Position numbers and translations under genes: made by a program
The notes under the pieces: generated by a model
Databases searched by the model: none
Seen by the model: the letters and a program-made list of their open reading frames with translations, nothing else
Told to the model about the DNA's origin: nothing
Source: Marsupella aquatica
Taxonomy: Eukaryota > Plantae > Marchantiophyta
Direction of reading: 5' to 3'
DNA: 64,000 nt
NCBI GenBank assembly: GCA_973895155.1
Contig: OZ316893.1
Coordinates: 17,178,670-17,242,669 of the forward strand
Shown here: in pieces, positions 3,291 through 33,800 of the stretch
Layout of the letters: each line of letters opens with the position of its first letter
Position numbering within the stretch: the first letter of the stretch is position 1

Positions 3291-3605
3291 ATTCCAAATT
3301 GGCCCAAATCACCAAAGCCAAAGCCAAGATAGCCTTGGCCGTACAAGCCAGAGTCAAGAAGGATGCAGAGATCGCGCGGCTTTGGATGCAGATTGACAAC
3401 TTAAAGGGACAAGCTATCATTTGGCATAAGCACGTGGAGGACGCTGATGCTCAAGCCCAGAGGGATGCGGCGGAGATTGACGCCCTAAAGGCAGAGGTGG
3501 CACGGCTTCTACAAGAAGCCACTAAACAAGACCAACTGGTGGCGCAGCTGATGAGCGATACCAAGCAATTGGACGAGGTGTGCCAGGATGCCATGGAGGA
3601 GACGG
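3283..3605 (+). pseudogene. 5' part of a coiled-coil extra ORF of gypsy A, split by element B
   Basis: Heptad-like AEIDALKAEVARLLQEA...AMEET. The frame continues across the B insertion at 26228. Confidence 0.7.
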
Positions 3606-4454
3606 TGTCATGCCAAAAGATTTTGGCTCAGGAATGGCTTTTATAGGGGATGATGGGCGAGGCCTCCCGATTGGGTTGCGTGCATGCTGACTCGGAGGGG
3701 TTGCTTGGTTGGATGGATTGAGGTTTGGTGATTGGATGACTCGTCGTCACCAGGTTTGGTGTTTGGGTGAGTCACCAGGCTTGGAGTTTGGATGAGCCTC
3801 GCTGATGGCAGCTGGCCCAGGCTGGATGGTTGGGTTTCCGATGCTACTTAAGACTTGAGCCTTGGCTCATTGAGGTTGGCAGTTGTCTATTGAGATCTGT
3901 TGAGTTGCGTTCTATGAGTTCTGCTCCGTTCTGTGGAACTCGACTGTTGTGTGGCGGTTTTAGAGTTATGGGCAAGTGTTGGATCCAGGTGTGGAGTTTT
4001 CAATCCAGGCGGGGATTTCTCAAGTTTGGAGTCTCGTCGATCCAGGCGGGGATTTCTCAAGTTTGGTGCCTCGTCGATCCAGGCGGGGATTTCTTGAGTT
4101 TGGAGCCTCGTTGGTCCAGGCCCGAGTTCCGTGTGAGCTGTTTTAGACTAGTGGAGTAGCTAGTCGAGTTTTGGTTTTGTGAGCTAAGGAGGATAGTTTT
4201 TCCGTCAGATTTTGAGTAGTTAGTCACTCAAGGAGTTCTACTCAACAAGTTAGAGGTAGCGGCCCGCCGTAGGGCCAGCTACCAGACTCTTGTGGGCAAG
4301 CTTACTCAAGGGCACCTATTGTAACCTTTGTGAGAAAAGTAAAAAAATATAAAGGAGTGAGAGTTTGCTCCAAAAAGTGCTTGTCGCCTGTCCCAATCGC
4401 AGCCAGAAACGCGCAGTTTGCCCGAGGAGCCCCTAACTTTAAGTCCTCGCGACA
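3606..4454 (+). repeat. 5' LTR of element B
   Basis: About 850-bp direct repeat of 25374-26223 with scattered substitutions; TG...CA ends. Confidence 0.95.
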
Positions 4455-7140: not shown

Positions 7141-9352
7141 TGTAATAGAGGGGTTAAGCCCTTAAGGATAGAAAAGTTATCTTATGTGAAAAAAATAGTT
7201 TTCAATGACCATGTTGAGGACCTTGAATGACTATTTAAGCATCTGTGAGTATATTAAGCTTGAATCATGCCAAGGTGCATATAAAGATGTTATGGTCCCT
7301 CATCCGACTCAATAGTGAAAGAGGAATAAAACCATAAATGGATTGGTATTGGGAAAATTTGATAGCGAGGAGAGACCGGCTTCAAACCCTCAAGCAAAGG
7401 TTTAACTTTGGAATTGAGGTTCAACTTTTCACAAATTTGAGTTAGACGGCTAATTCTAAGGTGAATTAATCAGTGCATTTCAGCAACAAGTAGCTCAATC
7501 TTTTATCAAGGTTGTGTTACCCCACCTTCCAGTAGTTCATGGAAAAAATTACACCAACTAAGTGATGGAAATTGAGGAGTTATTCCATCCGGAATTTGAA
7601 CCGGTTTCCATCCGGTTTTTGAGCCGGTTTTTGATCCGGTTTGGACATACCATCCGGTAGAAAAATTACCATAACTCTCAAACCATTTATCCAAATCAAG
7701 ATATGTAAAGTGTGTTGGAAAGCTCTTTCCGATGCGGTTAAGATATATATAAAGAAGTCTGAAAATGGACTCGAAATGACCCACTTAATATTATGAGACT
7801 CCAACCGGTGCAACCAAGAGATATCCGAGATTTCCAGACAAATAATGGAATGAAGATTTTGAAGCGTTGTTTCCACACCATTTGACCTTCAAGATGTCTG
7901 ACTTTGGACCAATAGGAAGCATGATCCATGGCTAAAGACCTTAACCAATCAAAATGGTTGGATAAGTATGAAATGATACTATGAAAAGATATACCCATTC
8001 ATTGGAAAATGGAGAGACTCGATAGTCAAATTCTTATTACTCTGGCACTCCTACATTTTACTTACACCAATGGACATTATCTCAAGACCTCATTTTTGGA
8101 AACCTTTCACTTTGAAACCAAGAAATGTACTACTTGCTTCCTATTTTACTACTACCTTTGGAGGTATCACTTTCATGCCAAACCCTCTCAACTCCATTGA
8201 TCCAACAGTAGACTCCACATTGGTGCAGCCTGACACTTCAACTCCTGAAGAGTAAAAAGTTATTCCATCCGGAAGTTGAACCGGCTTCCCATCCGGTTTC
8301 CCACCCGGTTTTTGATCCGGTTTCGTGTTTGAAGCCCTATAAAACTTAGTATAGGAAGAATTAGACTTTGAATTTTTGCTGAGCACTTTATCTCATAGTC
8401 TAGTTTCAGACTTTAGCATTACTTTTTACTTTTACACTTAGGTTAGGAATTGAAGAGGCATACCTCTTCAACTTTTGTTTAGAAGGAGACTTGTCCCTAA
8501 GTATAAGAGGGAAAGTTTCCACCATTTTACTCAGACTTACATTGCACTTTTGAAAGTCTCCTTCTTTGAAGTGAAGTAATAGATTCATAATTTTGGTGAT
8601 CTATGCTTTGTGTTTGGACATTAGTGTGTGACCATTCTTGCTAGAAAATCTATGGAAAGTGACTAGCAACGTCATAGTTAACCTTTAGGCTGACTGGAAA
8701 TGCATGCCTGAGACCATGCAAAGGTCTAAAGATTCATGTTGACTATGGAATACTTATGGCTTATTAAGTATTAGTGGAAGAAGCACCATACGAGAACTCA
8801 CAAATTGCGTAGTCCTAAAAGAGCAATCTGAAGGATTGAATAGAAGAATAAGTTAGTTCGGAGTGATGAGTACCGCCTTGCTTTGACTTGGCCATAAAAT
8901 TAATAAGGGCTATCTTATATACATCTTTTACAAATTCTTAGATGGTTGGCTTTAAGGATTAGCTTTAGGCATCAGCCTAATTTAGTCAGACTCTCTGTTG
9001 ACTCTTAATCGTGCCTAACTTAGTCATAGATTGCTAAGTGGCGAGAGGAGATGAGACATTTAAGGCTCGCTTAATCCTCTCTTTACGCCTCCGGCTTTTG
9101 GTTGTTTTGCTATAGTTTTAGAATTAATTATTGCATTGTTGATGATGCAAACATCACAATACCTGAGGATGTATTAAAACTCCTTCCACCTGACCTAAGC
9201 ATGTCGATAAAGGCTTAAAATCTGAGATAGGTTAGCTTAACTATCTCAAAGTATATTAATACAATCTTTTAGGTCTCACAAGCTCTTAACGGGAATGAAT
9301 TCTGGTTGTTTAAGAGGAAAGTAGTTCATATTTCCTTAAACCCTACTCTACA
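7141..9352. mobile_element. Solo LTR (2212 bp) of an unrelated retrotransposon inserted in B pol
   Basis: Ends TGTAATAGAGGGGTTAAG...CTTAAACCCTACTCTACA. 5-bp TSD TGGAT at 7136-7140 and 9353-9357. The B frame (MEVMD|QARLEP) resumes after it. No coding content. Confidence 0.9.
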
Positions 9353-9618: not shown

Positions 9619-10016
9619 CACTAGTAGAAATACCCCCTATTTTTTACCAAACCACTATTGACTACTGTGACAAGGTTATGGAAGTTTAGGGTGTTATCAC
9701 TACATATGTCTTAAGTATCACTTCCACAAAGTTTCCACTCATTTGTTGCGACTCCTTTGCGATGTTGACTTTACCTACTCTTTTCAATCACTCATTCTTC
9801 AAGGTTCAAGGGACATTGTTCATGGTTCAAGGTTGTCCATGCACCTTTGAAGTTGGATGGGGGATACCACTTAATTACAACATCCCATCATAAGGAAAAT
9901 GGCAGGTCCACTATCTAAGCTGATTGTCTTAGTTTAGGGTTCTTATGTGAGTGAGTGCTACTCACCAATTGCCAAACATTCAAGCTTTTTATGTGAGAAA
10001 ACTTCAAATAGTAGAG

Positions 10017-10150
10017 GTACCCCCTTACATGAGCCCCTTACATGTCACTGGCTGAGTACCTTAGTACTCTCCACCCTTGTGCAGTACCCCCTTACATGAG
10101 CCCCTTACATGTCACTGGCTGAGAACCTTAGTACTCTCCACCCTTGTGCG
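10017..10150. repeat. Two-copy ~67-bp tandem repeat inside the CACTA left arm
   Basis: GTACCCCCTTACATGAGCCCCTTACATGTCACTGGCTGAG.ACCTTAGTACTCTCCACCCTTGTGC occurs twice. Confidence 0.9.
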
Positions 10151-12392
10151 CGGGAGCAAATGTAGGGTCTTCGTCCGCAAAGAGGGTTTACAAAGGGGAG
10201 GGGAGGTGGAGCGAATGAGGTGACTCATTGAGAGGGGCGATCGATAGTCGATCGATCAAGGAGGGAATGAAGGTTTATGGAGAATATGGGATTCTTAGTG
10301 TGCAGTGTGTCGGGCTCTCTGTGATTTCAGGGAGGAGGAAGGGTTTGACACCACACTTGAAGCAACCTGACCACATTCAATCGGGTGCTGGGTGCGTTTG
10401 CGAGTGCTCCTTGAAGGCATTGCGGGGGCATTGCGGGAAATTTTAGGGTCGGACGCCAAGTTCGTGGTGCGGGGGTCCATCTTCCGCCATTAGCTTTGTA
10501 AGTCTTTACCTCTTTGCCTTGCATAGCATTGGGAGATGAGAGGAGAGGAAGTGCTTCTTGCTCTTGCGGTCGAAGACTCTCTGTGATTGAAGGGAGGAGG
10601 AAGGGTTTAGGGCCACACTTGAAGCGCAACGTGACCACAACCAACCAGGTGCTAAGTGCATCTACAAGTGCTCCCCGAAGGCATTGGAGGGGCATTGCGG
10701 GAAGACTAGCTTGGCGGGTCAAACGCAAAGTTGAAGGTGCGGGGGGGTCCATCTTCCGCCATTTGCTTGTTGGGTTGTTCTTCGGTCAAGAGGAGAATGA
10801 GCTAGAACAAAAACGCGCTGCGATATTGGAAGTGTCGGGTTTAGGGTGTCAACTTGTTTTCAAGACCGCTGATCTCTGGTGCAGCGTTGGGTGCGGCTGG
10901 TGTTCAGGTAGAGGTGAGAGGTCCCGTGCGACGCACTGTGGTGCTTCATTGTGCTTTGTTTGTACTCTGTTTGTTCATCTTAACTCTGGAAAATTAATGA
11001 CAGCAAAAACTATGGTTCATATATAGAAGGTTGTCCCTATTCGAGACCTCTCTTGCTGAATTCTCACCTCACTCTCTCTCGTCCTCTCTCTCGGTCTCGC
11101 TCTTCCATCGTGTCTCGCTCTTCCATCGTGTCCGCTCTCTGTTGCAGATTTCTCTCTCTCGCGATCCTCAAGTACGTGTCATCATCTCTCCCTCTCTTAT
11201 GCACGCCCATCACTATAGCAATCTCATGTCGGGGTCGGCGTCAAACTTGGATTTCACTATGGAAATGTAGATGGGATCACAGTATATTGTCGACACTTTC
11301 ATTATGCTTCGGCTTGAATTGCTCTAATCTTATACACTAGTATTCTAGTGTGCAGAAGTGTTGTGCAAAACTAAGGTGGGGTGCGGGGGGTTTTTCTTTG
11401 CCTTTGCTGAGCTGCGATTTCAACTCAACGGTCCTGTCCTTAGTCGCTTAGTGCTTATTTGTGTCTTGCAACAATTTTTCAGACCTGCGCGCCTGTAATG
11501 CTTGTACTTTCAGAATCGCAAACTTTAGAGTATACTCTTGTACTGTCAATGACTAAATTAGAAGTTATTACGCACGCCTATATGCTTCACTTGTGTCTTT
11601 GGAGGCTTTCGGATTAGAGGTTGCACAAAGCATGGATGTCATAGCTACCCTAAACTTCAAATTTTCCTGCATGCAATTCTACCTCTACATTCATGTTTCG
11701 GCAACAGGAAGAACGCAAAGGGAGCAGGTCACTCTTCCATTGACTACTTTGCCACTGTATGTATTCAATGTACAGGACATTAGTCAAATGTGATACTCTA
11801 TAATGTACTCCTCCACGAACAACTAATGAGCCACAGAACTGGTGAGCCACACTCTGTCTATGGCACTTGCAGATCATTTTTCCACCCGTTGGAGAGCTTT
11901 CTCTTTTGCCAAGCTAGGCACAAAGAAATCATTCCAGGGTTTTGTCAACTCCTGAGGTCTGTAATCACTCAGAGCCCTCTACATTGTCATTGCTTTGTCT
12001 GGGATTGGATTTTATGTATGGGGCGTCGATTGTATTCTACTGGCCTTCTTGCTGTGCTGAGCAATGTCCTGCTGTGGACTTTTGAATTCTTCTGCTGGTT
12101 CCCCCTATTTTCGTGGCCCCCAAAATTTATAAAAATTAATGTGTGAAAATGCTAGCCCAACAATTGCCCACCTTTAATGGCAAAAATCGTTCAATAATTG
12201 CCTATGTCCAATCTCAGAGTCCTAAACTTAAAATTTCCTCCATGCACACAACCCGTCTTGAATTTACAGCTTGAAATTACAGTTTCTCAAATCTTTGGTA
12301 TTAATTCATAGTTTTAGTTTCTCATTCCTTGCATGCTTCACTACGTCACTGACTCTGGCCATATTGTGTTGTTTTCTGTCGGGGTAGAAGTC

Positions 12393-13114
12393 ATGGCTCG
12401 TCCAAAATGGCCAGCACGCAGAGGCGGATCACAGGTGAGGCACCATTCCATGAGTAGACATCATCATTGGTCCAATGCACAAATTCATCAGAAAGCCGCT
12501 CATGTTTGTGCCATTTGTGACGATGGAGGTGACCTGGTCATGTGTGATGGCCCCTGCCTGAGACAATTCCATGTCAAGTCCTGGTCCACTTATGCACCAC
12601 AAAATACATGCCCTGGGGTTGGGCTCCAGGGGGACCATCGGGGTGCTTGGACCTGCTTTGATTGTGCCACTAATATCAGCAAGTGTGCTCAATGTGGCAC
12701 AAATGGCACTGTTGGGGGGGATCAACCAGAGCTACGGAAATGTCCTGACAGGTTTTGTGTTCGTTTTTTTTGTTTGACATGCCTGCCCCATGATAACTCT
12801 CTTTGCCCACTACATATTTGTCCTGCTTGTGGGGAGCCTGATGATGACTACTGGATAGACATGGTCCATTGTCCCAGATGTCCCACAGCCTGGCACCATG
12901 AGTGTTTACTAGCCCTTCAGGCAGAAGGGTATGCATGTGACCGCCAAATTTATTCCCACTCTGCACACGGGGTTGATAGGTGGTTTTGTATTGCCACCTC
13001 CATACGATTGACCCTCATTTGCAGACCCCTATGAGAGACCATTTGACTTGGCTATTGCTGGATGACACCTCCAGCGCCAGCAACAAAACAAGTGGATCAG
13101 CACCAACAGGCTGA
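12393..13114 (+). pseudogene. EDM2/NSD-type triple PHD finger module carried by the CACTA (one frameshift near 12985)
   Basis: CAICDDGGDLVMCDGPCLRQFH...WTCFDC; CAQC...CPDRFCVRFFCLTC; CPLHICPAC...CPRCPTAWHHECL. The shifted frame gives VLYCHLHTIDPHLQTPMRDHL, matching from memory the EDM2 post-PHD motif YCxxHxIDxxLxTPxRDH. Confidence 0.85.
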
Positions 13115-13998
13115 GCAAAATGAATCCAATATTTCACATCTCACATTTTGGACTTTTTAATGAAGTGGGCACCTCATTGCACTGTCTACCATAGCTCAGA
13201 GACACCCTGCTACAGTGAGCTATCGATCGACTTTGTGACTGCATAGTAAATTTGGATTTTGCTTTTTCAGTTCAGCCATACATGGTTCTGTCCTTATACT
13301 TTTGTACACGATGACACCTCAAAAACTAAGTTAACTTATATTTTGAAGACTGATTAAGTTAATTGCAATTTCAAAGTTAGGGCCTGCATAAGGATGTCTG
13401 TGTTTTTTCCACTTTCAGTGTGTATGGTAAGAGACCATAACTGTGAAAGACTAAAGATTCCAAGCAGACTGTTGCCTGGAGTAAAACAACATGCATGCAT
13501 TGGAGTATGAAAATACATATATAGCTACCATTATGTATTTGTTTTGGCTCTTAACAAAGGTCATCTTAAGTCGTGTGCCTGACCCATACATTTGTACTAT
13601 TATAGATGTGACTGGAAATTGGACAGTTTAATGATATCATTCTCAGTCCCCACCACTGTCACATAAGATATAGGTATTCGAATGTGAATTCAGGCTATAT
13701 TCAGACAGGACAATATAAAAGGCCACATGTATACTGAAGCAGGCTGTCGTTCTACTTTCATCAATGTAATTACATGAACACATGGTGAAAATAATTTGAC
13801 TGAAGAGTATATGGTTTGTCCTATAACTCCGTGCTGGGATTTACTGCATGTACTGACTTTCGATCCTGTCATGTGGGCCACAATCATGGAGCTAGAGTGC
13901 ACTTTGTGTCATAAGAGAGCATTGGGCTGAAGCATTGAGGGACAGGCAATTACGCGGGCACTGGTATTTCTCTATTGGCTTTTATTACAGGAGGCATC

Positions 13999-14626
13999 AT
14001 GCCTTCCAAACGGAAGCGTGAACCTGTCCCCCTTCCACCTTCCCAGTGTGCTCCCATCTTCCAAGGGGTCAAAGTCTTTTTTGTCCCAGGTATTCAGAGT
14101 GCAAGATTGAATATCCTTAGGAGAAAACTCATTGAGCATCACGGTACAGAGACACAATGTCAACTACAAGACATTCAAGTCACCCATATTATTGCAAAAA
14201 CATGGGAACATTGTCTGAAAATGGCATCTTGGTCGGTTTTTTATGACAAAGTCTTCTTGAGGCATGTCAAAGTACTTTCAGCAGAATGGATGTCTGACTC
14301 CCTTAGAAAAGGGACTGTCCAAGATCCTGATGATTACAATTTGTTTGAGAGCAAGTACAACAGCGTCCAAATGATGAAAGATAGTCGAGATTGGCACAAG
14401 GCTCGTAGAATTACAGGGAGAGGTGGGAGTAGGGTTCCGTCTATTGACCAGATCACAAAAGTATACAATAACATTATCCCATATGAGACAGAACCCATCC
14501 CAGACCGTACAATGTTCAGAGGTGTGAGGGCTGTTATACTTGACAAGTCTATCAAGCCATATAGGGTCTGTCGTTTCAAGAGGGAGATCAGTAGAAGAGG
14601 TGGTACAGTGATTGAGAAGCTCACTA
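13999..14626 (+). CDS. BRCT exon (DNA polymerase lambda-like BRCT plus the start of a second BRCT), predicted first coding exon of the CACTA transposase gene
   Basis: IFQGVKVFFV..IQSARLNILRRKL..VTHIIA..VLSAEWMSDSLRKG..DYNL, then MFRGVRAVIL..RRGGTVIEKLT. Donor GTGAGT at 14627. Confidence 0.75.
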
Positions 14627-14719
14627 GTGAGTATACACCGTGTCTGTGATATTTCCTTCATGAAACTTGCATGTGTCCCTCCATGTACTTAGAATATGCA
14701 ATTGTATAAGCCTGTCTAG

Positions 14720-17700
14720 TGCAAAGGGTACATAGCCAAGGTGTGCCTATGACAGTTGAAGGTATGGATGGACAATTGGGGCAAAGGAATCAGACACATA
14801 CCAATGAACTGCAACTCCCTTTGCATCACCCACTGAGGATTGCACGTCATGACTCCAAGTTGTGGAATAGAGAGGTGCTTAGAGCAAGCCGGGGCAGAAA
14901 TGCCCGGATGAGATGCCCCTGCATGCAATGTCGAGGATACCACTCGATGACCCTAAACCAAGTGCATTCTCATCTTCAAAGGCATGGAAGACATCCAGTC
15001 CGCAGGGTGTGGAATGTGCCAGAGGAAGAGGATTCATCGGATGATGAATGGAGGGCAGATTTTGAAAATGTGAATACAGCAAGACGCTCTGCATTCTTTC
15101 ATAATGTCACTGGTCATGCAGGCTACAATGCCGAAGATGAGTATGTTCCACAGGGAGGTCCCGAGACTTCTAATGAGGACGGGGCAGATGTTCCTAGGAT
15201 GGTTTCGGACATTTTTGAAGACCTGGATGCACTTTATGAAGATGCAGAGGCACAGGGGGACAAAGAGGCAGACATGCATGGTGCAGGCCCGTCGGACCAA
15301 GAAGAGTTTGACATTGGAGAAGGAGTTGGAGATGATGGTCAATTCTTGGGAGTTGGGGTCTACTTGGAGGAAGCTACGTCCCCATTGTATGGTGGTGCAA
15401 ATTGCTCCAAACTAGGGTTCATAGTGATGTTCCTCAATATATGTGGATGTCACCATGTGCCCAACATATGTGTAACAGAGTTGTTGATGTTCCTACAAAC
15501 TACCCGCTGGAAACATTGCTCCTAAGAACATGTATGAGGCAAAGAAGGTGATGAGCAAACTTGGTTTGAATTATGTGTCCATCCATGCATGCCCAGATGG
15601 CCATGTACTTTTCAGAAAAGAATATGTTGATTGCCTATCCTGCCCTATCTGCGGAAAGCACAGATATAAGAACGTGGGGAAGTCAACTCAACCTGCTAAG
15701 GTCCTACGGCATTTCCCTCTCATTCCAAGATTGCAGCGCCTCTATAGGTGTCCATCCATTTCTAAGATGATGACTTGGACCTCTGATCACAAGAGTACAG
15801 ATGGTTTGCAACGTCACGTTGGAGATTCCAACCATTGGAAGTACATAGATGAGAAGTGGCCGAACTTTGTAGCAGAGAGTAGAAATGTGAGGTTTGGTCT
15901 AAGCCTCGATGGTGCTAATCCATTTGGAGACAAGAACAATGTGTATTCTTGCTGGCCAGTGACTTTGATAAATTATAATCTCCCGCCTTGCATATCCACC
16001 AAGCGTTTTTTTGTGATCTTGTGTCTTATGATTCCCGGCCCAAACTCTGCTATAAGTGCAAACATAGATGTTTGGTTGGCCCCTGCTGTGGAGGAATGGG
16101 TTATTCTATGGACACATGGAGTTATGACAGTTGATGCACTTTGTGGACCTGGTAGACCGAGGACATTCAACCTACGTGCAATGTGTGTTAATTCGATAGC
16201 AGACTACCCTGGACATAGCATGATATCTGGGCAGGTAGGGAAGGGATATCTGGGTTGCACACGATGTTACATCTGAACGGTCTGCTTCCTTGGGCAGTAT
16301 CAAATTCATGGGCCACAGGCGATATCTTCCTGCCGACCACCCTTTCAGGCACAGGCCATCCCACATAGCCCGCTTCAACAACCAGAGGGAGCTTCGAGAG
16401 TCTCCTCTGTTGGTTAGTAGAGATCAACTTCTGCAGTGGGGACTAAACAAGGTGTCTTATGATGAATATGGTGCTTCCAGAGACGTGCCAGACGACCCAG
16501 CAAAGACTCATGGCATCAAAAGGCAGACAATCATGGACACATCATTGGAGTATTGGAAGGTAACATTTGCATATTCACTTGTACTCAGTGAACCTATTCA
16601 CAACAGTTTTTAGTTATTGTGTCTGAACCTAATTGTGGCAATCATGCGTACTTCATGGGTGCAGGATTTTGAACCAAGCAAACATAACATTGATGTAATG
16701 CACATTGAGAAGAATGTATGCGAAAGTCTTTTGAAGTTTCTGTCAAGGGATAACGATACTGCAGCAGTACGAAAGGACCTTCAGGAGAAGGGCATTCGTC
16801 CTCAACTTTGGCTGCAAGAATCCCAAAATAGGCCGGGTGTGGTATTCAAGTACCAAGCTCCATATGTTTGCACCCAGAACGAGTGGAACACAGTTTTGTC
16901 TAGGCTGAGTTCGTTCAGAGTACCCTCTGGGTATGCTGGAGCCTTTGCAAAGCATATAAGGAAGAAGAAGTTGGGAAGCATGAAAACTCATGACTTCCAT
17001 GTTATGATGCAAGACATTCTACCAGTATGTCTGAGGGGATTGATGCAAAAACCAGTTTGCAATGTCATTTTGAGATTGTGTCAGATCTTTTGCCGTATTT
17101 GTGTCAAGGTGTGGGACCCTACAACATTTCCTCAATTAAAGGCAGATACTGTGCGTGTGCTTTGTGACTTGGAGATCTATTTCCCGCCAACATTTTTTGA
17201 TGTCATGACTCATTTGATCATCCATGCGGTTGAAGATTTGGGCCACTATGGCCCAGTGAGTACAAGGTGGATGTATCCAATGGAACGGTACATGAAGTTG
17301 CTAAAAGGCCATGTACGTACTTATTACAGGCCTAAAGCAAGCATGGCTCTCGGTTACATTCAAGAAGAGACCTTGGGGTTCCTAACAGAATACATGGCTG
17401 GTGTAGACAGTGTTACGGGCAGGGTGTGGGATGCTGAGGAAGAAGAGGGGGTGGCTGGAGAGGTTCTTCAAGGCACTTTTACTTCCATGCAATTGTCTGC
17501 AGAAGTTTGTGATGCAGCACACTTATATGTGTTACACAATACAGTCATGATGCAACCTTGGTGGCAGTGAGTACTCATGTTTCCGCACCCTCCCTGCATT
17601 CCTTCTTTATTCATATCCATTTTGGTAGGATATGTACATTGTATTGAGAAATTGTTCTCATTGTCATCATTGTATGCAGGGAATATAATGTGCAGAAGGC

Positions 17701-18286
17701 CACCCAATTAGGGTTAAATCACCAGGCATTCCCTACTTTTCCTGAGTGGATCAGGACAACAATTTGAGAGCATAGCAGGCAAAACCCAAACATGGATAGA
17801 GATGTTCTCCTCTTGTCTGTGCCTCCCAGACGTATTGTACAGCGGTATAAACGGATGAAAGCATATGGGAATCAGTACCGTGTGCATGATGATGAGGACA
17901 AGCATTTAGTGACATATAATTCGGGGGTAATATCTGTGTTTGAGCATATAGATGCTCAGAACAATAGGGGCTGCATGGAGATGGGATATGTCGGGGAGTT
18001 GGCAGACATCTGGGCACTGAATTATGGGAACACAACACAACAAATCATCCTAATGAAAGGTTCATGGGTGAAGCCAGATTGGCATGGGCCAAGAGCAACC
18101 ATGAAACGGGATATGGATGGCTTTCTAATGGTCAATTTTAACCAAAGACTGGCAGAATGGATGGAGCCTTTTGTGTTCCCAAGTCAAGTCGAGCAAGTGT
18201 TTTTTTTAGATGTGGAGGAGTCTCGTGGTTGGCATGTAGTCTGCCATAGCTCACCTAGAGTTCGAAGGATGGAGGTACTAAAATAG
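14720..18286 (+). pseudogene. CACTA TnpD-like transposase (transposase-associated, Tnp2/Transposase_21, DUF4218-, DUF4216-like regions)
   Basis: CPCMQC; IHACPDG; LRHFPLIPRLQRLY; RNVRFGLSLDGANPF; SIADYPG; DVMHIEKNVCE; FPPTFFDVMTHLIIH; RWMYPMERYMK; EPFVFPSQVEQVFF. Introns ~16560-16664 and ~17568-17679. Frameshifts near 15505 and 16275. Confidence 0.95.
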
Positions 18287-18803
18287 AGTTCAGTTTGGAT
18301 GCACATGGGGCCTTTGAACAGCCGGCAGTAGACGTTGTACATCGGGGCCAGGGGACCAGGGAGTACATCCCCTTGACAGTGAGACAGACTTATGAGGGAG
18401 AGGTTGAAGCTGAGATGGACGAAGATGATGAGTAGATGGATCTGTTTTGTTGTGAGTAGGTGACTCTTTGAAGTGCAATGAGTAGCAAATATGAGCAATA
18501 AATGGATGACTTGTTTGTGCAACCGTAGCAACTTGGTGAGTAGGATGCCAGACAAAAATGGCATGTGTGAGTATGAGAAGCAGGCTGTCAAACACCGAGC
18601 ATGGGTTCAGCAATGTGCCGCAGCCCTATTGGGTGATGTGCAAGAGGCTATTTTGGATATGTAAGGGAACTGTGCATAGTATGAGCTATATGCGTATGTC
18701 CTTGTGTGCGTCTATTCATTGTGTAGCTTCTGTAATGGACTACTACATTCATAACCCGTGTCAAATTTCATGTGGGTGTTGCAGTAACAAAATTATCCCA
18801 ACA

Positions 18804-21714
18804 ATGTCGAAGCGGAGTCATTGTAGACGGAAGACCTTTTGTAATCCTGACGGACCTAGGCGACGCAGTGAGAGGTTGACTTCAAAGACCCCTATTTCAA
18901 TGGTTGAATCTCCTGATAAGAATGAGGTAGAGGATTGCATACCTAATGGTGGTGATACAGAATATGATCCTGACCAAGATCCGAATGCAAGTGCTAGCAT
19001 GTCATCGGATGATGACATGCCAAATCCTACCCCTCCACCAAAGCCTGCTTGCAGTAAGGCAACTGGGGGAACTTCTATGAGATCTCGACCAACGCCCTCT
19101 GTATACTCAGCCCAAGCCCCGAGCAACAACAATTGCAATAACCCGCAATTTAATGCCCCCAACTCTAACTGGCCGCAAGCACGACAGGGGGGCAATAACT
19201 ATGGCGGGTCTATGGGTGTAGGCCCTTCTGCTAGCTATATGGGTCCTAGTTGGCCAAGTAAGTGTGAACATTTGAATTTGTTTCATGAATGTGGACAAGT
19301 GTATTTTGAGCTGCAATTGGCTGCTTGTGTTCCTCAATAGATGTGGGTCTGAGTATGACAATTTTCCTGGTCTGATGTGAGTGGCAGACCCAATGTGGGA
19401 CCGTATGCAGCCCACAAATATGTATGAAGGAGGGTCAATGGGGCCATCGGGGCAATTCATGGGAGGTCCTCATCCAATGGGGACAGGATGACAAGGTTAT
19501 GGTGGGTATGGTGGGAACCCAGCACCAGCACTAGCACCAGCACCTTCAATCCAACCGACAAAGACTCTGCGGAGGGGAGGAGGTATTTTCTACAGCAGTT
19601 GTAAGTAAAGTATTTAAATCAGGTAATTCACAGAGACCATATGATATTAATGGTGTTAATTGCGTTTCTCTTTTCAGATAACCCTATCACACCCCGCGCA
19701 AGCCATGGGGGAGGAACTCCTGGATTTGCAACACCAAGTAGTGCGTCAGGGAGCACTGGGAGAGGTGAGAATGTGAAGCTGGGTACTGTCGAAGTTGATG
19801 ATGAAGGCCGGATCACAACGATGAGTGCTGGAAAGAATAGATGGCACAATGACCTGCGAATGGAGTGTCTACGATGGTTGGACATTAGCTGTACTAACTT
19901 TAATTGTCAACATCCATCTGATTGGGAACTGGTTTGCAAATATATGCGAGACAAATGGGAATATTTGGGGAATTCTGGGAAAGGGGTCAGTGCTGATTGT
20001 CTTGCAGAATATGGACGAACTATCATGAAAATAGAGAGGCATCGATTGCACAAAGCATGGATTGCTGATGGCAGTAAAGCACATGCTGAAGCACCCCCAA
20101 GTGGTCATGTAGAACAATGGGCTCGACTAAGAGGGACATTCCTGTCTAGGGCAGGACAGGAGAAGTCTGCACAAATGATTGCTGCTAGAAATGCAGTGAA
20201 GAACCCTACGCTTACAGGGAGGGGAGGACATGCACCAGTAGTAGCCAAATTGGTTGGGTTCCCATGCCATACAAATCTGTATTTACATTTCAATATTGGG
20301 GTTGACTGTATGTAGTTGTAGCAGCATGGTACATTTAGGCAAGATTGACATTGAGAAACGTGTCTTGCAATGTTTATGTGCTCCAGAAAAAGCTTACTGG
20401 AGAGAAACCCACAAAAGAGGAGGTTGTGGCAGAAATCAAAAGGGTAAAGTGTGATGAAGGCAACGTTGGATCTAAACAGGTAATTTAGGAGCATTATTGA
20501 TGGACAATCTGTTGTACAGTCTTTCTTTAGATGCACAGTACTGTCAGCCCTTATGCAATTGTAAAATTGCTGAGAAGAGCCGTTTGGTTGGTGTATGTCA
20601 TATATAGCAGGGAGCAGTGTCTACCCTTACAGAGATATCAGACCGGTTGAAGACTGTGGAGAATGCTTGGCCATCAGTCGAGACTGGGATGAAGAGTCAA
20701 TTCAAGGACATAGCCAGTCTTCTTCAAAGCCAAGGATCAACCTTAAGGGAAGTACAAGCTGAATTACGTGAGTTGCGGGCGATGCACATTGTTGGCAGGG
20801 TTGAGCACCCAATTGCACATCCATTACATGAGCCTGCAAATATTGAGGAAGTTGTGCCTACAAAGAAGAGTGGTATGTGTCATCTGAAATCATGTTTAGT
20901 GTAGTGTGACTTTACCTGGGAATTTGAGGTTCATGGGTGCAGGATGGTTCAGGTTCAGGTTCTAGACCCTCAAGGTTTGTTACATTGTGCATCAGGTGAT
21001 CAAATTGCAGTGACTGCAGCAGATCCAAAGATCATCGAACCTGGTACAACTGTCATTGACAGTAAGTAAATGTTGGTTTGAATCCTCTGTCTGGCCTATT
21101 AATGTGGTTGAGTATCTATGCGATGTACGTTCAATTAGTGCAAACTTGATGGTTTGTTGAGAGCTTTAGTGCAAATATGCTTAGTTGTTGATGAAGGAAT
21201 TTGTGGCTGCTCTTGAGGTACAGAGCCAGCACAGGAGGAGGTGCGCATGCCAAATCTAGCAGGCAGGAAGAGGAGATGCAACTTAGAGGCTACCAAATTT
21301 TCAGATTCACAAGAGAAGCAGAGTGATGAGAATGATGTGGTTTTCATAGACTCTCAGCCTCCCTCAGGTATTGGAGATGAGTTTTCTCAATCCCCACCAC
21401 TGGTGAACATGGGAAAGATGAGGACCAGAAACAGTGGGAAGGAGACTTCGCCTTACAAGGCACCAAAGAAGAAGAGGAATATTAATTCTCCAAAAGGGAC
21501 AGCAGTGAGCATTGTAGTACAGTCTTCTAGGCTAATGGCAACTGATAATTCTGGTGTTTGTGTTGGGACCGGCATACTTCAAATTGAAGCAAGTACTTTC
21601 CATGGAAAGAAGGTATTTGCTGATCATGTTGTGTTGTTACTGACTGCTTTTAGGGAAATAGCAGTCAGTACTGCTGTTGCCATTGTTAGTTGGATTGGTG
21701 CTTTTGTGGCATGA
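18804..21714 (+). pseudogene. Second CACTA gene (TnpA/ORF2-like), multi-exon
   Basis: Position after tnpD. Exon 19678-20250 has the ORF2-like pattern P...EQWARL...F.S..GQEKS.QM..AR..VKNP..TGRGG. Exon structure is not fully resolved. Confidence 0.6.
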
Positions 21715-22052
21715 ATGACTCAGTCTCGAATATGAATGACATCATTGTCTACGGAAACTAGTGCGGTCAAATCAGTGTTACCAATCACTCATGGAAAACC
21801 CTATATGACTCGAACTAAGTCAGTATGAGTCACTTATGTTTGACTGATGTATAGATCTAAATACTTGACCCTCTAGTCACTAAAAAGACTATTGACACTA
21901 GTCAATAATATGACTAAGTCAATCAAAGTCACCACTTTTACGACTACTAGTTGCAAGAATGACGTCAGTGATCTAATGTCATAGATGACCGGTTTTAGTC
22001 ATAGTCAGTCGTATTTTATGGTCAAAAATAGGGGGTATTTCTACTAGTGTCG

Positions 22053-22238
22053 GTTCCGTGGGCTTTAGCTTCGAAGCTTGCGGAACTGCTTAAGGAGAAG
22101 CTGAGTGCTAGGATTCTCGAGAGGTCTGATGCTCCCTACTCGAACAGATGGTTTACAGTGAGAAAGAAGAATGGAAGCTTGAGGTTCATTCAGGATATGC
22201 AACCTCCAAACAAGGTGACCATCAGGAATGTGGGAGTT
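22053..22238 (+). pseudogene. N-terminal part of B reverse transcriptase
   Basis: ILERSDAPYSNRWFTVRKKNGSLRFIQDMQPPNKVTIRN, cut off by a second CACTA end. Confidence 0.85.
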
Positions 22239-23385
22239 CACTAGTACATATTAAGTTGATTTCCGATGCTCAATTTTTGCGAACAATCGGTGTCCGATTC
22301 TTTTAGCATCGGAAATTCCGATTATCACAAAATGGCAATATGCCATACTCTCGGCTTTGGATATCTTCATTTCCGATATAATTGACAACGAAACCTTTCC
22401 GATGCGTTAAAAAATGGATCATATCCGTTAGAAAACACATCGGATCCCTCAACAAAAACTTTGATTGATATGTCCGATGTTTTTTGTAACAAAAATGATG
22501 TGCGTTACAATATTGATCGGAAAAGTTCCGTAGTTAATAAGAACGGATATTATATCCGATTGTGCTAACATGGGAAAGTCCGATGCTGGGAGAATGGGAA
22601 AGTCCGATGCTGGGAGTATGGGAAAGTCCGATGCTAGAAGAATGGGAAAGTCCGATGCTAGAAGAATGGGAAAGTCCGATGCTGGGAGCATGGGAAAGTC
22701 TGGTTGTGGCAAAAAGACAAATTTTGATTGTGTTAGAATGAAAAGTTTTGATGTGTTAGATGGGGTATGTGGTTGCACCGACATACTCTTCCCAAAAGAT
22801 GCAATCATTCTTGCATGCATGAATAACTTTATACTTGAGGCAAATGGACTTGAGTGTTGTTTTTGCCTCCTTCCAAGACCCAACATATTGTTCCCTTAAG
22901 GAAATATGTGCTCAACATGCAGCCAAGTCCAAAATATATCATCTAGAAGGAGATTGCTTCTCCCATGTAGTCTTTGTTGCAAGTCCAACAACAACATAGT
23001 TGATAAAAGATGAGACAATCAGGAGCCATTGATGCTAAGGCTTTGGAAGGACCAAAATATCATCAATAACTAATAAGCCATAATATTATCCCATATAAAA
23101 TCTAATGAAGGAAGGCTTTACTATCGACGAATGACCCCTGCCAAATTTCTATTGGTTTCTCCTAGGGGAATGTAACAGGGTAACTAGAATAGGTCACTTG
23201 ATGCAAAGATCTAATCTCATGATAGAGAAAAATGGATCAAGAATGGGTCCAAATTATGGGTCTTAGTAAATTCACAAGTGTATAAAATCCCCAAACACTC
23301 TAAGTCAAACAACAAAAGTGCTAAGCTTGCATGTACAATGTAAGGAATAAGAACCACAAAGTTAAGCTCATGTTGGAGGAATAGC
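22239..23385 (+). mobile_element. Truncated second CACTA element (one terminus only)
   Basis: Starts CACTAGTAC exactly where B RT breaks off, followed by TCCGAT/ATCGGA subterminal motifs. No second TIR before B RNase H resumes at ~23390. Confidence 0.75.
22570..22702. repeat. 24-bp tandem repeat, about 5.5 copies
   Basis: ATGGGAAAGTCCGATGCT(G/A)G(G/A)AG(A/T/C) units starting at 22570, 22594, 22618, 22642, 22666 and 22690. Confidence 0.95.
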
Positions 23386-25364: not shown

Positions 25365-25373
25365 GGGGGAGGA
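25365..25373 (+). promoter_or_regulatory. Polypurine tract of element B
   Basis: GGGGGAGGA immediately before the 3' LTR. Confidence 0.8.
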
Positions 25374-26223
25374 TGTCATGCCGAAAGATTTCAGCTCAGG
25401 AATGGCTTTTATAGGGGATGATGGGCGAGGCCTCCCGGTTGGGTTGCTTGCATGTTGACTCGGAGGGGCTGCTTGGTTGGATGGATTGAGGTTTGGTGAT
25501 TGGGTGACTCATCGTCACTAGGTTTGGTGTTTGGGTGAGTCACCAGGCTTGGAGTTTGGATGAGCCTCACTGATGGCAGTTGGCCCAAACTGGATGGTTG
25601 GGTTTCCGATGCTACTTAAGACTTGAGCCTCGGCTCATTGAGGTTGGCGATTGTCTATTGAGATCTGTTGAGTTGCGTTCTGTGAGTTCCGCTCTGTTCT
25701 GCGGAACTCGACTGTTGTGCGGCGGTTTTGGAGTTCTGGGCAAGTGTTGGATCCAGGTGTGGAGTTTTTTTATCTAGGCGGGGATTTCTCAAGTTTGGAG
25801 TCTCGTCGATCCAGGCGGGGATTTCTCAAGTTTGGTGCCTCGTCGATCCAGACGGGGATTTCTTGAGTTTGGAGCCTCGTTGGTCCAGGCCCGAGTTCCG
25901 TGTGAGCTGTTTTAGACTAGTGGAGTAGCTAGTCAAGTTTTGGTTTTGTGAGCTAAGGAGGATAGTTTTTCCGTCAGATTTTGAGTAGTTAGTCACTCGA
26001 GGAGTTCTACTCGATAAGTTAGAGGTAGCGGCCCGCCGTAGGGCCAGCTACTAGACTCTTGCGGGCAAGCTTACTCGAGGGCACCTATTGTAACCTTTGT
26101 GAGAAAAGTAAAAAAATATAAAGGAGTGAGAGTTTGCTCTGAAAAGTGCTTGTCGCCTATCCCAATCGCAACCAGAAACGTGCAGTTTGCCCGAGGAGCC
26201 CCTAACTTTAAGTCCTTGCAACA
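25374..26223 (+). repeat. 3' LTR of element B
   Basis: Direct repeat of 3606-4454. Confidence 0.95.
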
Positions 26224-27254: not shown

Positions 27255-29136
27255 CAATATTTTGCAATTAGTGGTCAACACTCAACTATGGCCACTAGGA
27301 AAATCATTCAGAGTTCCCAAACGCAACCATCTATGGTTGAGACTGCCAACCTCCTCAAATTCTGACTTGCAAGAATTGTCAAGGGGTCAACACCTATTAA
27401 GGTGTTGGTTGAGATTTCACATGCAAACAACTTGCAGGCTGAAGCGCATTGTTTCTCATCACCATTCATCAACCAAGTCAGGCATACAAGAATGCAATAT
27501 TCAAAAATGGATCAAACAGTTTGGCCAGTTCCATCAGGGAACTTGGCACAATCAGAGTTGTTGAATTTTCTTAAGACTGTAGTGAATGTCCTTGCCAACG
27601 ACTTGGTGACTGTCGTGATTATTGTGCACCCAAGTCTCTTGCTGACCAGAATTATTGAAGCTGTCACTGATCTACCTTCGAGTTATAATGCTCATCTGGA
27701 GTATGGAAGCTATTGGAAGAGTGCAAAAGAAGTCCGCTCATCGCATTTCATGTCGGGTATTATTGAGTCTATTGTTTTGCTTGGAGTCTCCTAGGAACAA
27801 GAACCGGATTGGGAAAAACATTTCAAAGGGTTTCAAGGTCATTTCTTGGCTAAATCTGTGGATCAGCTTGAGCTTGCAAGACTAGCCAATGAAGATTACT
27901 TTGGCCTTTCCAAGCAAGAGGTTGCAGCAAAGCAAAAATCTGCTCTTGGAAATCACTTGCAAAGACTCATTCCTTTTTGGACACCCGGTGGCAGAACCTG
28001 TATATCTAACATTAAGCATTGCAAAATTATCAAGGCAATCATTCTTCAATTTTCCAAAAAGGAAGAAATTGTATTTGACTTCTTTACTGGTGGGCAAGTT
28101 TTATTGAATGCCCTTCGTCTAGAAAGGGAATGTTTCTCTTTTTGTTTGGAAAGGGCGGATGTGAGACCTTACGGCTTATGTGGAGAATCTCAAGTCGTTG
28201 AAGGGTGTTGCACAATTCTCAAAATCCTTATGGAAACTTCCAAGAGGGGAAGGCAGCTCAACGCAAAAATCTAATGCAAGTGGGGCAAAGGAAGGGAGGC
28301 ACTATCATATCATTGGAACAATCTCCCAATTATCATAATTGTCTAGAATTTGATAACAGATTTTCTGATCCTTGTGTTGGTAGGATTAATGTTGGCAAAC
28401 AGATTTGCCATCCTTTGGAATTTGGTGAGGTCCAAATACCGATCTACCAATTAGGGAGTTTCAAAGGACCTCGATCTCATGGAGGAAGAACACCACGATG
28501 GTGGAATAGCTCTATCTCTTCCACAATCTCATAGCCCTGTGTGCAAGCCTTGTGTGGGGTCATTTGGCGAGGTGGACTCAATTGTAAATGATATCGCACC
28601 GGTCGTGCCTGAGGATCCTTCCGATTACCTTTGGGTTGTAACTTGAGTTCAAGAAGCCGTTAACATCATCAATCCATCCCCTCCCCATACTTGGGCAGAA
28701 AATTGGAGTCCCTACGAGGTTGAGTCTGTCATCAAACATTTTGGTAATATTGTCGTGGAACTTGTAGTGGAGCATGCAAATGAGGCAGGTGCCAATTCAC
28801 TCTATCCCACTTCTCACAACTTGAACAATGATATATGTGGCAATAGACTTTTGACTCAACCCTGACTTGGAACATGATTTTGTTTTGTCAACGTACAATC
28901 AATGGACGCGTCATGACTCACCGCAAGATGGCATGTCCAGGTCCTGAGCGATGGATAACTTCTGAAATTCTTAATGCTTATTTTGGTCTGATTGCTTCAA
29001 GAGCATAATCCACGGGCAGCGAGCTCCCGCAGGTTCATCTTTTTGATACTTGGTTCTATTCTGAACTTGTTCAAGGTGGATATAAGTATGAGGACGTCCA
29101 AACATGGACCTCAAAATTGGAGTACTTCTTAACTGA
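27255..29136 (+). pseudogene. Decayed, internally deleted paralog of the ParB-MTase-Ulp1 gene at 30850-35523
   Basis: YFAISGQHSTMATRKII, LVEISHANNLQAEAH.FSSPFI, EYGSY, EEIVFDFFTGGQVL, and Ulp1-region HLFDTWFY. Many stops. Confidence 0.9.
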
Positions 29137-30849: not shown

Positions 30850-33800
30850 TGGGCAGCAGGAGGAACATTTGAGTCAGAAAATGAGGATGACGGAGAGGAG
30901 GGAAGTGTCCAAGAAGAGAGCAAGAAGACTTTTCAGAATCGGGCGGGGTCAGAGAATGAGTCAGAGTCAACAAGTTTAGAAGGTGGAGTTGAACCAACCA
31001 ACGATGATGTTGAGAGTGGGGAAATTCAACTCCCCCCAGCAAAGCCTCCAATAGAGAAGCGATACGCAAAGACTTCAAAGGGAGTTTCGCCCAGGAAGGG
31101 GAAAGCTGGTGTCGTGTCAGAGTCATCCACACCCAGTGGGAAGAAAAAAGTAGTGGACAAAAAATCACCATCAGGGAAACTAGGCCGGAAGAAGGTTGAT
31201 TTTGACAAAACAAAAGAAGAAGCTAAACTACCTCGGAAGAGAGTGAAAGTCATTGATCAAGCAGATGAGCTGCCTGCGGCGAAAACAAGCCGCAAGAAGG
31301 TTCAACGGGAAGAACAAAAAGAAGACAAGAAACCATCTCGAAAGAGAGTTCTTGTTTCTGACCAGCGCGAAGTCGTGCCTCAAGTGAAAGGTGGAAAAAA
31401 CGTATCTCCGGTTGATAAACAAGAAGAGGCAACGTCTTCTCGAAAGAGAATTCAAGTTGTCGAGGAAGTGCAAGGAATCAAGGACAGAATACAAAAATCA
31501 AGCAAAGCAAGGAAAGTCGCTTCACCAGCAAAACCTGAGGAGGAGAAACCATCTCAAAAGTCTCGGGTTGGACAGAAATCTGCGTCGGTCAGGAAGAAAG
31601 TTGAAAAGGTCGAACCGGAGATCAGGACGCTGAAGCAAAAGGGAGTCGTAAAAGATCCTTCACCAAAGGGAAAGAAAAAAGCAAAACTTGATGTTGAATC
31701 AGTAGTTGTGGAATCAAGGGCAAAGCCTCCTAAGCGAAGGGGAACGACCACAGAGTCGGCTGAAATTGTTGTGAAAACTCCCATGGTTAGAGTTGTGGAG
31801 AAGAAGGCCCCAAATGTTGAGAAGAAGGTTGTCATCACCTCTCAAGCTGTCGTTCACAAGCCCAAGAAAGCAAAGAAAAATCAGGAAGCTGTGGATATTG
31901 ACGAGAACCCTAGTTCCGCGAAGCTAGTTGTTGACCGTGCTCGTCTGGAGACTGCAGAAAAAACATTGGAGTTGAATAAGTCTTGGTATTGTTTTGGGAT
32001 ATCCAAATTTTTTTCTGTCCCGATTGAAAACATCCATCCCCCTCCTGCAAAGATGAATGAGAGACTCCTCAATGAGGAGCATGTCAACCATCTTGCGCAA
32101 CTGATGATGACAAATGCAGGGCAAGAACCTTTACCTGCAGATTTGGTTCCTTACAAGATGATCGACGGAGTACCGAGTTTAATTGACCTTGCGGGAAAGG
32201 ATATTGACACCAAGAAGCTTGCGGAATTCAAGTTCTTTGCCATCAGTGGTCAACATTCCACAATGGCCGCCAAGAAAATTATCCGGAGTTCAAAGACCCA
32301 ACCATCTCTCATGCAAACAGCCAATTTGCTCAAATATCGTCAAGCGCAAATTCTCAAAGGGTCAACTCCGGTGAAAATTCTTGTGGAAATTTCACACGCG
32401 AACAACCTTCAGGCGGAGGCACATCGGTTTTCATCTCCATTTATTGACCAAGTGAAACATGCAAGAATGCAATACAATGATATGGGGCGACCAGCTCGTC
32501 CACTTCCATCGGGTCGGAAATCTCCAGAATTTCAGGTAGGTTCTCCATGAGAGTTGTGAACAAAATTCAGACACTTTGTCCTTCTCTCCTTTCTACGCGA
32601 GAGTCGTGTAGAGCCTTTCCAGTATTTTGGGATTCAAAACTTTGAGCAAGCTAACTTTGAGTTGTTTGGTCTTTCCTCTCAGGAGTATGAAACACTTGCG
32701 AAAGTTACGTTAAAGGTGAATAGCATTAGCGAGTACAATTGGATTTTTTTTGCTCCAGAGAAGCTCTACTCTTTATGGAGAGAGGTTTGCAATAATTGGC
32801 TCAAGGGTAATCTTTTGGATTCAACCGGACAAATGACTGGAAAATTGAAAGAAGCAAAACAGTTGACAGGGACAACATTCCGGGTTTTTGAGGGTGCCAT
32901 AGAATCCGACATCTTGGAAATCCTCCACAAAGTGAATTTTGGGGAGGCGCTTTTGATGAAAAAGAAACATGCTTTGACTGATCTTCCCGCCATGTCAGAA
33001 TTGGCAAGAAAAGAAAAGAAAACTGACAAACTTAAGGGGGCAATACTTCAATTTTATCGGGAGAAGTACGAAGGGGTTTTCTCGCAAGGATCAACTTGGG
33101 GTGATGTAGTTCAGCAATATAATTTCATTGATGAGGAATTGGATCGTTGTTGTGCAATGGTGGACACTGGATATTTCAAGAGCCTTGTGAAGGTGTCATT
33201 AAAAGCAGAGATGCCGGAGCCACTGAAAAATAGGTTGAGAAATATTCACCAAAAGAGGTTTGGCGGCTATCTCCATGCAAGAATGGATCCTTACCGAGTT
33301 TTCTATACTGGAAATCTGCTCGCGTCTGCTGATCCTCCTTTTGATTCGGCTAGCTGCAAGGAGTCAATATTGGCATCTCTAGCGATTGTTGATTTGACCC
33401 ATACTGGAAACCGGTTTGGACGCAGTCCAAAATCTTGAACTTCTTGAAGATCGTCGTGAATATCCCAATCTGGTAACAGTTGTTTTTTTGTTCGTCGTGG
33501 TATTATTCTTGCAAGAATAATTTAAGTTGTTTGAGATCTCCCAGAGAACTATAATGCGCACCTTGAATATGGTTCATTCATGAGGAGTTATTTGGTTAAT
33601 GCTCCTTCGCAACACATGAGAGGCAATGCGGACATGGTTCTTTTCCTTGGCGTCTCCCAAGATCAGGTTCCTGATTGGGAAAAGCATTTCAAGGATTTTA
33701 CCTGTCACTTTGTGTTGGAGGAGTCCGACCTCGAGGAGACAATCAAGCCAAGTCGAGAGGATTATTCCAATATTTCGAAGGAAGATATGCAGGAGAAAAA

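What the first reader, a model, noticed from the sequence alone, without database searches (positions are those of the whole stretch)
13999..15525. Pol-lambda-like BRCT can splice in frame onto the CACTA transposase
Seen: a phase-1 donor (ACT A|GTGAGT, 14627) and acceptor (TCTAG|TG CAA, 14719) define a 93-nt intron. It joins the BRCT exon to the transposase-associated ORF without a frameshift. Known: the Pol lambda BRCT mediates recruitment to Ku/XRCC4-LigIV in NHEJ, and CACTA transposases normally lack BRCT. Inference: a transposase that recruits or competes for end-joining factors at its own breaks. The acceptor pyrimidine tract is weak.
Basis: partly seen in the sequence, partly recalled or inferred. 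Interest (0 to 1): 0.72.

Follow-up and report, generated by a model that had tools for sequence, protein, structure and literature searches.

The report
Plant CACTA transposon carrying tandem-BRCT gene
A broken copy of a cut-and-paste transposon, likely from a plant, carries just ahead of its transposase a gene for a pair of BRCT domains (a module common in DNA-repair proteins) that a distant relative also keeps intact; it is likely made as a separate helper protein that would engage the host's DNA-damage machinery, and the in-frame fusion seen in this copy is likely a by-product of a deletion.

Summary
The 93-nt GT..AG intron (14627-14719) exists on paper and keeps the frame, but the reading changes. 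The region lies in a decayed 12.4-kb CACTA element (9619-22049; 26-bp TIRs, 3-bp TSD). The ORF is a tandem BRCT, not a single one. Sister contigs from four runs leave the window at 14631 and continue with the second repeat's THLI motif, so this copy has lost roughly 280 nt or more. Its donor sits on that deletion junction; sisters carry a donor-like site at the same intron position. The closest fetched relative (L001, transposase 52% identical) has an intact 269-aa tandem-BRCT ORF (29% identical) in the same place. It ends in stop codons 67 nt before a donor-like site, and I found no plausible splice into its transposase. Among solved (mainly animal and fungal) BRCTs, Pol lambda ranks below REV1, BRCA1, Rad4 and PARP4; plant Pol lambda was not tested. 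Best reading: an old, selected accessory gene of one CACTA clade, likely expressed separately, likely binding DNA-damage proteins. Fusion in intact copies stays open (about 0.2-0.25). No RNA evidence. My paper searches and this scan's earlier notes showed no BRCT-bearing CACTA.

The parts
9619..22049 (+). CACTA/EnSpm element, 12.4 kb, decayed copy, inserted into a Gypsy pol gene
   Evidence: 26-nt identical TIRs starting CACTA, TSD TCG on both sides; RT-RNaseH and integrase ORF downstream; flanking LTR pair 3598-4454 / 25366-26223, 94.6% identical
9619..9644 (+). left terminal inverted repeat
22024..22049 (-). right terminal inverted repeat
12393..13034 (+). second passenger ORF: NSD-type PHD-finger cassette (213 aa), with an acceptor-like AG 5 nt before its ATG
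   Evidence: PF23004/PF23011 E about 1e-5, under cut-off; NSD2 PHDs E 2.4e-7
13971..13990 (+). strong acceptor-like site 8 nt before the BRCT ATG; L001 has an AG 9 nt before its ATG
13999..14649 (+). tandem-BRCT ORF: BRCT1 complete (about 14053-14337), BRCT2 cut after its first strand-helix-strand unit (about 14512-14631)
14625..14641 (+). deletion junction: sisters diverge after 14631 and rejoin at 14642; a 7-nt word occurs at both sister ends; about 280 nt or more missing, including most of BRCT2
   Evidence: tables 7 and 8; L001 continuation
14764..16559 (+). transposase exon 1 with its own ATG (Transpos_assoc + Transposase_21), frameshifted near 15497-15504 and 16224-16276
   Evidence: clade transposases carry a Met 30-51 residues before the DxKLW motif
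16665..18286 (+). transposase exons 2-3 (DUF4218, DUF4216), one in-frame stop in exon 3
19605..20315 (+). probable TnpA-like exon (no Pfam hit; similar ORFs 3' of the transposase in L008-L010)
   Evidence: tblastn E 4e-8 to 5e-8; the TnpA label is inferred

Best explanation
This is a broken CACTA copy from a clade whose two members with enough upstream DNA both carry a tandem-BRCT reading frame just before the transposase; the BRCT pair is likely made as its own roughly 270-residue protein by alternative splicing, and it likely serves as an adaptor or decoy for host DNA-damage proteins at the breaks the transposase makes. Shown: the element, the tandem BRCT, its conservation in L001 with a stop before the donor, the deletion in this copy, and an AG 2-9 nt before the ATG of each of five ORFs examined. 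Inferred: one promoter at the left end and a short leader spliced to alternative acceptors, giving separate PHD, BRCT and transposase mRNAs, as En/Spm elements do for TnpA and TnpD. Also inferred: the deletion removed most of BRCT2 and probably the stop codon, bringing the frame up to a donor that likely lies in the 3' UTR of intact copies. The partner is untested. A phosphorylated damage mark or checkpoint protein (the usual ligand of paired BRCTs) is more likely than Ku/XRCC4-Lig4 binding of the Pol lambda type.
For: L001 is the best transposase match among 80 loci (52%) and the only one with a BRCT hit (tblastn E 1e-15; blastp 29%, E 4e-19). Its ORF is open for 269 codons with two BRCTs and ends TAA TAA. 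A donor-like GTAAGT lies 67 nt after the stop, 271 nt from the THLI codons; sisters have at least about 274 nt between the same points (inferred from X2 record 12). Window and L001 lie on either side of the basal split of a 7-member transposase clade (FastTree 0.979). Under neutral point mutation both frames stay open at 30% identity in 1 of 2000 runs. Of 65 in-frame GT/AG pairs that could join L001's BRCT2 to its transposase, the top-scoring ones use donors inside BRCT2; the one donor next to the stop scores -2.9. The candidate bridging exon has stops in all three frames. Clade transposases have their own Met, including ATG 14764. Sisters have a 1-nt insertion in the intron (X1, X2) but 15-nt in-frame insertions behind ATG 14764 (X2, X4). 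Precedent for spliced or separate accessory genes in plant Spm: 10.64898/2026.08.24.746577, section 6 read. A plant dual-BRCT protein binds gamma-H2A.X: PMC9792525, abstract and outline only.
Against: No transcript was seen. Only one independent relative (L001) has upstream DNA, and its donor is not proven homologous (no DNA-level alignment). The missing sister segment could not be read; one of the three frames of its last 15 nt is open and phase 1, which would allow fusion. L001's donor is also phase 1 to its BRCT frame, with 22 open codons after the stops. The phosphate pocket is unclear: the BRCA1 T-x-K position aligns with T-M-R in L001 BRCT2, but the Ser-Gly of the first loop (recalled) is not kept in any of the four repeats. 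The function rests on domain class alone. The splice matrix is a recalled heuristic, and an AG shortly before an ATG is common by chance.
Confidence: 0.55

Rival explanations
1. Intact sister elements splice the tandem-BRCT exon in frame onto the transposase, giving a BRCT-BRCT-transposase that tethers its own breaks to host repair factors; the deletion here merely kept the phase.
For: Sisters have a donor-like GTGAGT at the same distance from the acceptor. The phase-1 reading of their exon end is open. The shortest possible sister length would also be phase 1, but contig junctions leave the true length open (inference). Fused and split forms of accessory domains both occur in Spm elements.
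Against: L001 stops before its donor and offers no plausible in-frame route. The phase-2 reading of the sister exon end has a stop right before the donor. The transposase has its own ATG. None of the 120 listed (of 267) long transposase homologues carries a BRCT Pfam label (many are unspliced gene calls, so this is weak).
Confidence: 0.23
2. The repeats derive from a duplicated plant Pol lambda N-terminal BRCT and recruit or compete for Ku/XRCC4-Lig4.
For: BRCT1 sits at the very N-terminus behind a basic patch, as in Pol lambda (recalled). Human Pol lambda BRCT aligns along the whole repeat profile (E 0.005). Pol lambda BRCT binding to Ku and Lig4/Xrcc4 is stated in PMC11997757 (passages).
Against: Pol lambda has one BRCT. 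REV1 (1e-5), BRCA1 (1.5e-5), Rad4 (2e-4) and PARP4 (8e-4) score better. L001 BRCT2 is closest to BRCA1 (E 2.7e-5, against 0.39 for Pol lambda). Atlas neighbours are generic or twin-BRCT clusters, all under 0.9 and so leads only.
Confidence: 0.17
3. A host gene fragment captured Pack-CACTA style and decaying neutrally.
For: This copy is decaying: 10 of the 15 listed differences to sisters in the BRCT ORF are non-synonymous (only 40 of 183 rows were shown), and BRCT2 is deleted.
Against: The transposase of this copy decays in the same way. The L001 ORF is intact at 29% identity in the same position.
Confidence: 0.04

Closest known systems
Plant En/Spm (CACTA) elements with TnpD transposase and TnpA, expressed by alternative splicing or from separate genes (10.64898/2026.08.24.746577: passages and section 6 read)
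   Same: CACTA TIRs, 3-bp TSD, Transpos_assoc-Transposase_21-DUF4218-DUF4216 transposase, further ORFs on the same strand, acceptor-like sites before each ORF.
   Different: Two passenger ORFs (NSD-type PHD cassette, tandem BRCT) lie 5' of the transposase. The word BRCT does not occur in that paper's main text; its supplements were not seen and may list such a domain among its 962 structures.
Tandem-BRCT damage readers (BRCA1 C-terminus, Rad4/TopBP1; plant XIP, PMC9792525 abstract)
   Same: Two BRCT repeats in a row; L001 BRCT2 matches BRCA1 BRCT1 at E 2.7e-5, with T-M-R at the T-x-K position.
   Different: Transposon-borne; apparently nothing but the two repeats; linker of about 45-60 residues, longer than in BRCA1 (recalled); the better BRCA1-BRCT1 match is the second repeat; phosphate pocket only partly kept.
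DNA polymerase lambda BRCT (NHEJ recruitment; Paramecium PolX acting after PiggyMac cleavage, PMC11997757 passages)
   Same: N-terminal BRCT fold; the idea of coupling transposase-made breaks to end joining has this precedent.
   Different: Single repeat on a host polymerase; not the best match here.
Pack-CACTA elements carrying host gene fragments (title seen in a reference list; otherwise recalled)
   Same: Host-type domains inside a CACTA element.
   Different: Here the passenger sits in an autonomous-type element and is conserved as an open frame over deep divergence.

Membership tests
CACTA/EnSpm transposon | TIRs beginning CACTA | tested here: met
   26 identical nt at 9619 and 22049
CACTA/EnSpm transposon | 3-bp target-site duplication | tested here: met
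   TCG on both sides
CACTA/EnSpm transposon | TnpD-type transposase (PF13963, PF02992, PF13960, PF13952) | tested here: met
   all four found in order; PF13963 just under its cut-off
CACTA/EnSpm transposon | TnpA-like second gene | tested here: inconclusive
   no Pfam hit; ORF 19605-20315 matches 3 of 80 loci at E about 5e-8
Active autonomous CACTA copy | intact transposase frame | tested here: not met
   two frameshifts and a stop
BRCT domain | profile match above curated cut-off | tested here: met
   window BRCT1 PF00533 29.1 bits against 21.3; L001 35.4 bits; 3 of 4 repeats match PF00533 at E up to 0.5
Pol lambda-type BRCT | single N-terminal BRCT | tested here: not met
   tandem pair in L001 and, truncated, in the window
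Pol lambda-type BRCT | closest known BRCT is that of Pol lambda | tested here: inconclusive
   rank 26 of 49 in PDB; no plant Pol lambda sequence was available to compare
Phosphopeptide-binding tandem BRCT (BRCA1 type) | Ser/Thr-Gly and Thr-x-Lys pocket residues (positions recalled) | tested here: inconclusive
   T-M-R aligns with BRCA1 T-L-K in L001 BRCT2; first-loop Ser not kept
Phosphopeptide-binding tandem BRCT (BRCA1 type) | head-to-tail packing of the repeats and ligand binding | not testable with these tools
   both models had mean pLDDT under 40
BRCT-transposase fusion | spliced transcript joining the two frames | not testable with these tools
   no RNA run was available; laid contigs run through the intron
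BRCT-transposase fusion | open frame up to the donor in intact relatives | tested here: inconclusive
   not met in L001; unreadable in the near sisters

The most novel reading that the evidence does not exclude
Intact members of this CACTA clade splice a tandem-BRCT exon onto the transposase, making a eukaryotic transposase that carries its own DNA-damage-reader module. It would hand its breaks to host repair or aim insertions at damaged chromatin, with a PHD cassette as a further alternative module.
Probability: 0.2. Interest if true: 0.78.

Novelty: new variant of a known kind. Interest (0 to 1): 0.5.

Why it matters
Known plant CACTA accessory proteins act on transcription and silencing (TnpA). 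A BRCT pair kept under selection in one clade would point to a second line of host engagement, the DNA-damage response at the element's own breaks. How plant cut-and-paste elements steer repair of the donor site is little known (my own knowledge). A small stand-alone protein is easy to test: express it, pull down partners, assay gamma-H2A.X peptide binding. Even without fusion it appears to be an undescribed passenger class; five paper searches found no BRCT-bearing plant transposon in their listings.

Tried and rejected
No whole genome is held, so sister copies could only be seen as short contigs. Run search: no RNA holder listed, which says nothing on expression; the two joints listed are not the proposed splice. 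Only 4 of the 6 runs were laid, so the length and phase of the missing segment stay open; contig overlap logic gives only a lower bound. Protein searches with the BRCT ORF found nothing at near or longer lengths (63 and 381 candidates), and the first metagenome scan found no relative (87 stretches); these need shared exact words and missed L001's ORF, so they are weak. The profile search of the large representative set was never obtained, so the host source of the repeats is open. Both structure predictions were unusable (pLDDT 37 and 33), so no fold search and no complex job were run. A profile of the four repeats found no further BRCT among 7116 frames from the 80 loci and the window (next best E 0.1). 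Pfam found none in 54 upstream ORFs of 100 aa or more from the other loci with at least 2.2 kb upstream (38 loci). A short look-alike between the window's transposase N-terminus and a small L001 exon gave no alignment and was dropped. The reference-intron scores were mis-indexed and not used, nor was the off-frame L001 exon B row. Contig depths were not used as copy numbers. Minor X1 and X3 contigs show 1-nt insertions at 14770 and 14775, inside the presumed coding part; I read them as divergent or decayed copies but did not test this. Proteins clustered with L001's transposase all end at the first intron or earlier, so they look DNA-derived and give no splice information.

Full report
Observation. 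ORF 13999-14649 has a BRCT at residues 19-113 and ORF 14710-15525 a transposase-associated domain. The in-frame match is cheap: 5 of 9 AGs between the upstream stop and the first conserved transposase motif are phase 1, and both sites score poorly on a rough, recalled splice matrix (0.7 and -0.9 bits).

The element. The region belongs to a CACTA element at 9619-22049 with 26-nt TIRs and a TCG target duplication, inserted in a Gypsy pol whose LTRs are 94.6% identical. From left to right it holds an NSD-type PHD ORF (12393-13034), the BRCT ORF, a three-exon transposase and probable TnpA-like exons. The transposase is broken: frame changes near 15500 and 16224-16276 and a stop in exon 3. Named transposase homologues are land-plant proteins at 41-47% identity, among them a fern's; the nearest are unnamed sequences at 62-73%. 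A plant host, probably non-flowering, is an inference.

Sister copies. Six runs hold part of the stretch; four, from two studies and two organisms, were laid. Their contigs run through the putative intron, so they behave as DNA. In all four runs listed contigs leave the window at 14631, and the loose end reads in frame as T-T-H-L(-I), as far as each run's letters reach; this continues a second BRCT. In X1, X2 and X4 listed contigs rejoin at 14642 with a loose end that carries its own GTGAGT at the same distance from the acceptor (52 loose-end rows were not shown). One X2 contig has 308 unmatched letters on that side, so about 280 nt or more are missing here (inference, using the recalled 30-letter contig overlap). 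A 7-nt word occurs at both sister ends, which suggests a microhomology-type deletion; the 10 letters after it match the sisters at only 3 positions, so some filler or local rearrangement is likely. Sisters also have 8 more letters at 15497, which puts the two transposase ORFs in one frame, 15 more in frame behind ATG 14764 (X2, X4), and one more inside the intron (X1, X2). So this copy is a decayed one and its donor sits on the junction. The last 15 exon letters of the sisters are open in phases 0 and 1 and end in a stop in phase 2; the true phase could not be fixed.

A distant relative. A metagenome scan with a transposase alignment kept 80 of 458 confirmed loci. L001, the best match (52%), is the only one with a BRCT hit. 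It has an intact 269-aa ORF at 875-1684, 29% identical, with two full BRCTs, ending TAA TAA 375 nt before the transposase frame. A donor-like GTAAGT lies 67 nt after the stop and 271 nt after the THLI codons, close to the sisters' lower bound of about 274. No plausible splice links L001's BRCT2 end to its transposase, and the small candidate exon between them is closed in all frames. Against this, the L001 donor is also phase 1 to the BRCT frame, and its homology to the sisters' donor is not shown. In a FastTree tree of 96 Transposase_21 regions (window, 20 of the 120 listed proteins, loci with at least 230 aligned residues; midpoint root), the window, P0001-P0004, L001 and P0006 form a clade with support 0.979, with L001 outside the window's subclade. 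The other five members have no upstream DNA available. None of the 38 other loci with at least 2.2 kb upstream showed a BRCT. Neutral point mutation leaves both frames open at 30% identity in 1 of 2000 runs. The ORF is therefore an old passenger under selection, seen only in this clade in my sample.

Origin. Against solved structures, a profile of the four repeats ranks REV1, BRCA1, Rad4 and PARP4 above human Pol lambda (rank 26 of 49, E 0.005), and L001 BRCT2 is closest to BRCA1 BRCT1 (E 2.7e-5). Atlas neighbours are generic and twin-BRCT clusters under 0.9. Plant Pol lambda could not be compared, and from memory its BRCT does resemble these repeats, so that origin is lowered, not excluded. 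Structure models failed.

How it most likely works. Each of five ORFs examined (PHD, BRCT and transposase in the window; BRCT and transposase in L001) has an AG 2-9 nt before its ATG, four with a visible pyrimidine-rich stretch, and clade transposases have their own Met. I infer a leader exon spliced to alternative acceptors, giving separate mRNAs. Plant Spm elements split accessory domains from the transposase by splicing or as separate genes (10.64898/2026.08.24.746577, section 6 and passages read). Paired BRCTs typically read phosphorylated damage signals (established knowledge; a plant dual-BRCT protein binds gamma-H2A.X, PMC9792525, abstract). I therefore propose an adaptor or decoy acting at transposase-made breaks (overall 0.55). 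Fusion in intact copies (0.23) and Pol lambda-type Ku/XRCC4 recruitment (0.17; PMC11997757 passages) remain, and these two can overlap.

Novelty. Paper searches for CACTA + BRCT, EnSpm + BRCT, transposase + BRCT domain + transposable element, tandem BRCT + transposon-encoded, and DNA transposon + encodes + BRCT + accessory gave no relevant title in their listings (open-access library only, listings and abstract starts seen). This scan's earlier notes hold no such element. It is a new variant of a known kind, resting on two independent elements and short sister contigs, with no expression or binding data: interest 0.5.

Noticed in passing
window 12393-13034 (+): Open 213-codon NSD-type multi-PHD ORF inside the same CACTA element (NSD2 E 2.4e-7). 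From memory it resembles the composite PHD of plant EDM2, a factor that alters transposon silencing (PMC3632883 passages); the EDM2 likeness was not tested. No match in the 80 loci, and L001 does not reach far enough upstream.
   Followed up: partly
L003:4439-5044: SET-domain ORF (PF00856, E 7e-10) just upstream of another CACTA transposase, a further chromatin-type passenger at the same position.
   Followed up: no
window 27366-28274 and 30850-36503 (+); 38373-41236 (-): Clusters of ORFs with DNA-methylase-like (PF01555, E 0.0025) and, by eye only, ParB-like, Ulp1-protease-like and FCP1-like sequences; 27261-27538 resembles 32236-32513 at 72%. Probably passengers of other large transposons.
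   Followed up: no
window 43435-45976 (+): Broken ORFs that look, by eye, like a MULE-type transposase.
   Followed up: no
window 7200-9200: About 2 kb of AT-richer sequence interrupts the Gypsy pol upstream of the CACTA, with a 66-nt internal repeat (7578-7642 / 8258-8323); likely another nested insertion.
   Followed up: no
window 22230-23380: A further non-coding stretch interrupts the Gypsy pol just after the CACTA; it begins with a CACTA-like word at 22239 and holds a short tandem repeat (22570-22700).
   Followed up: no
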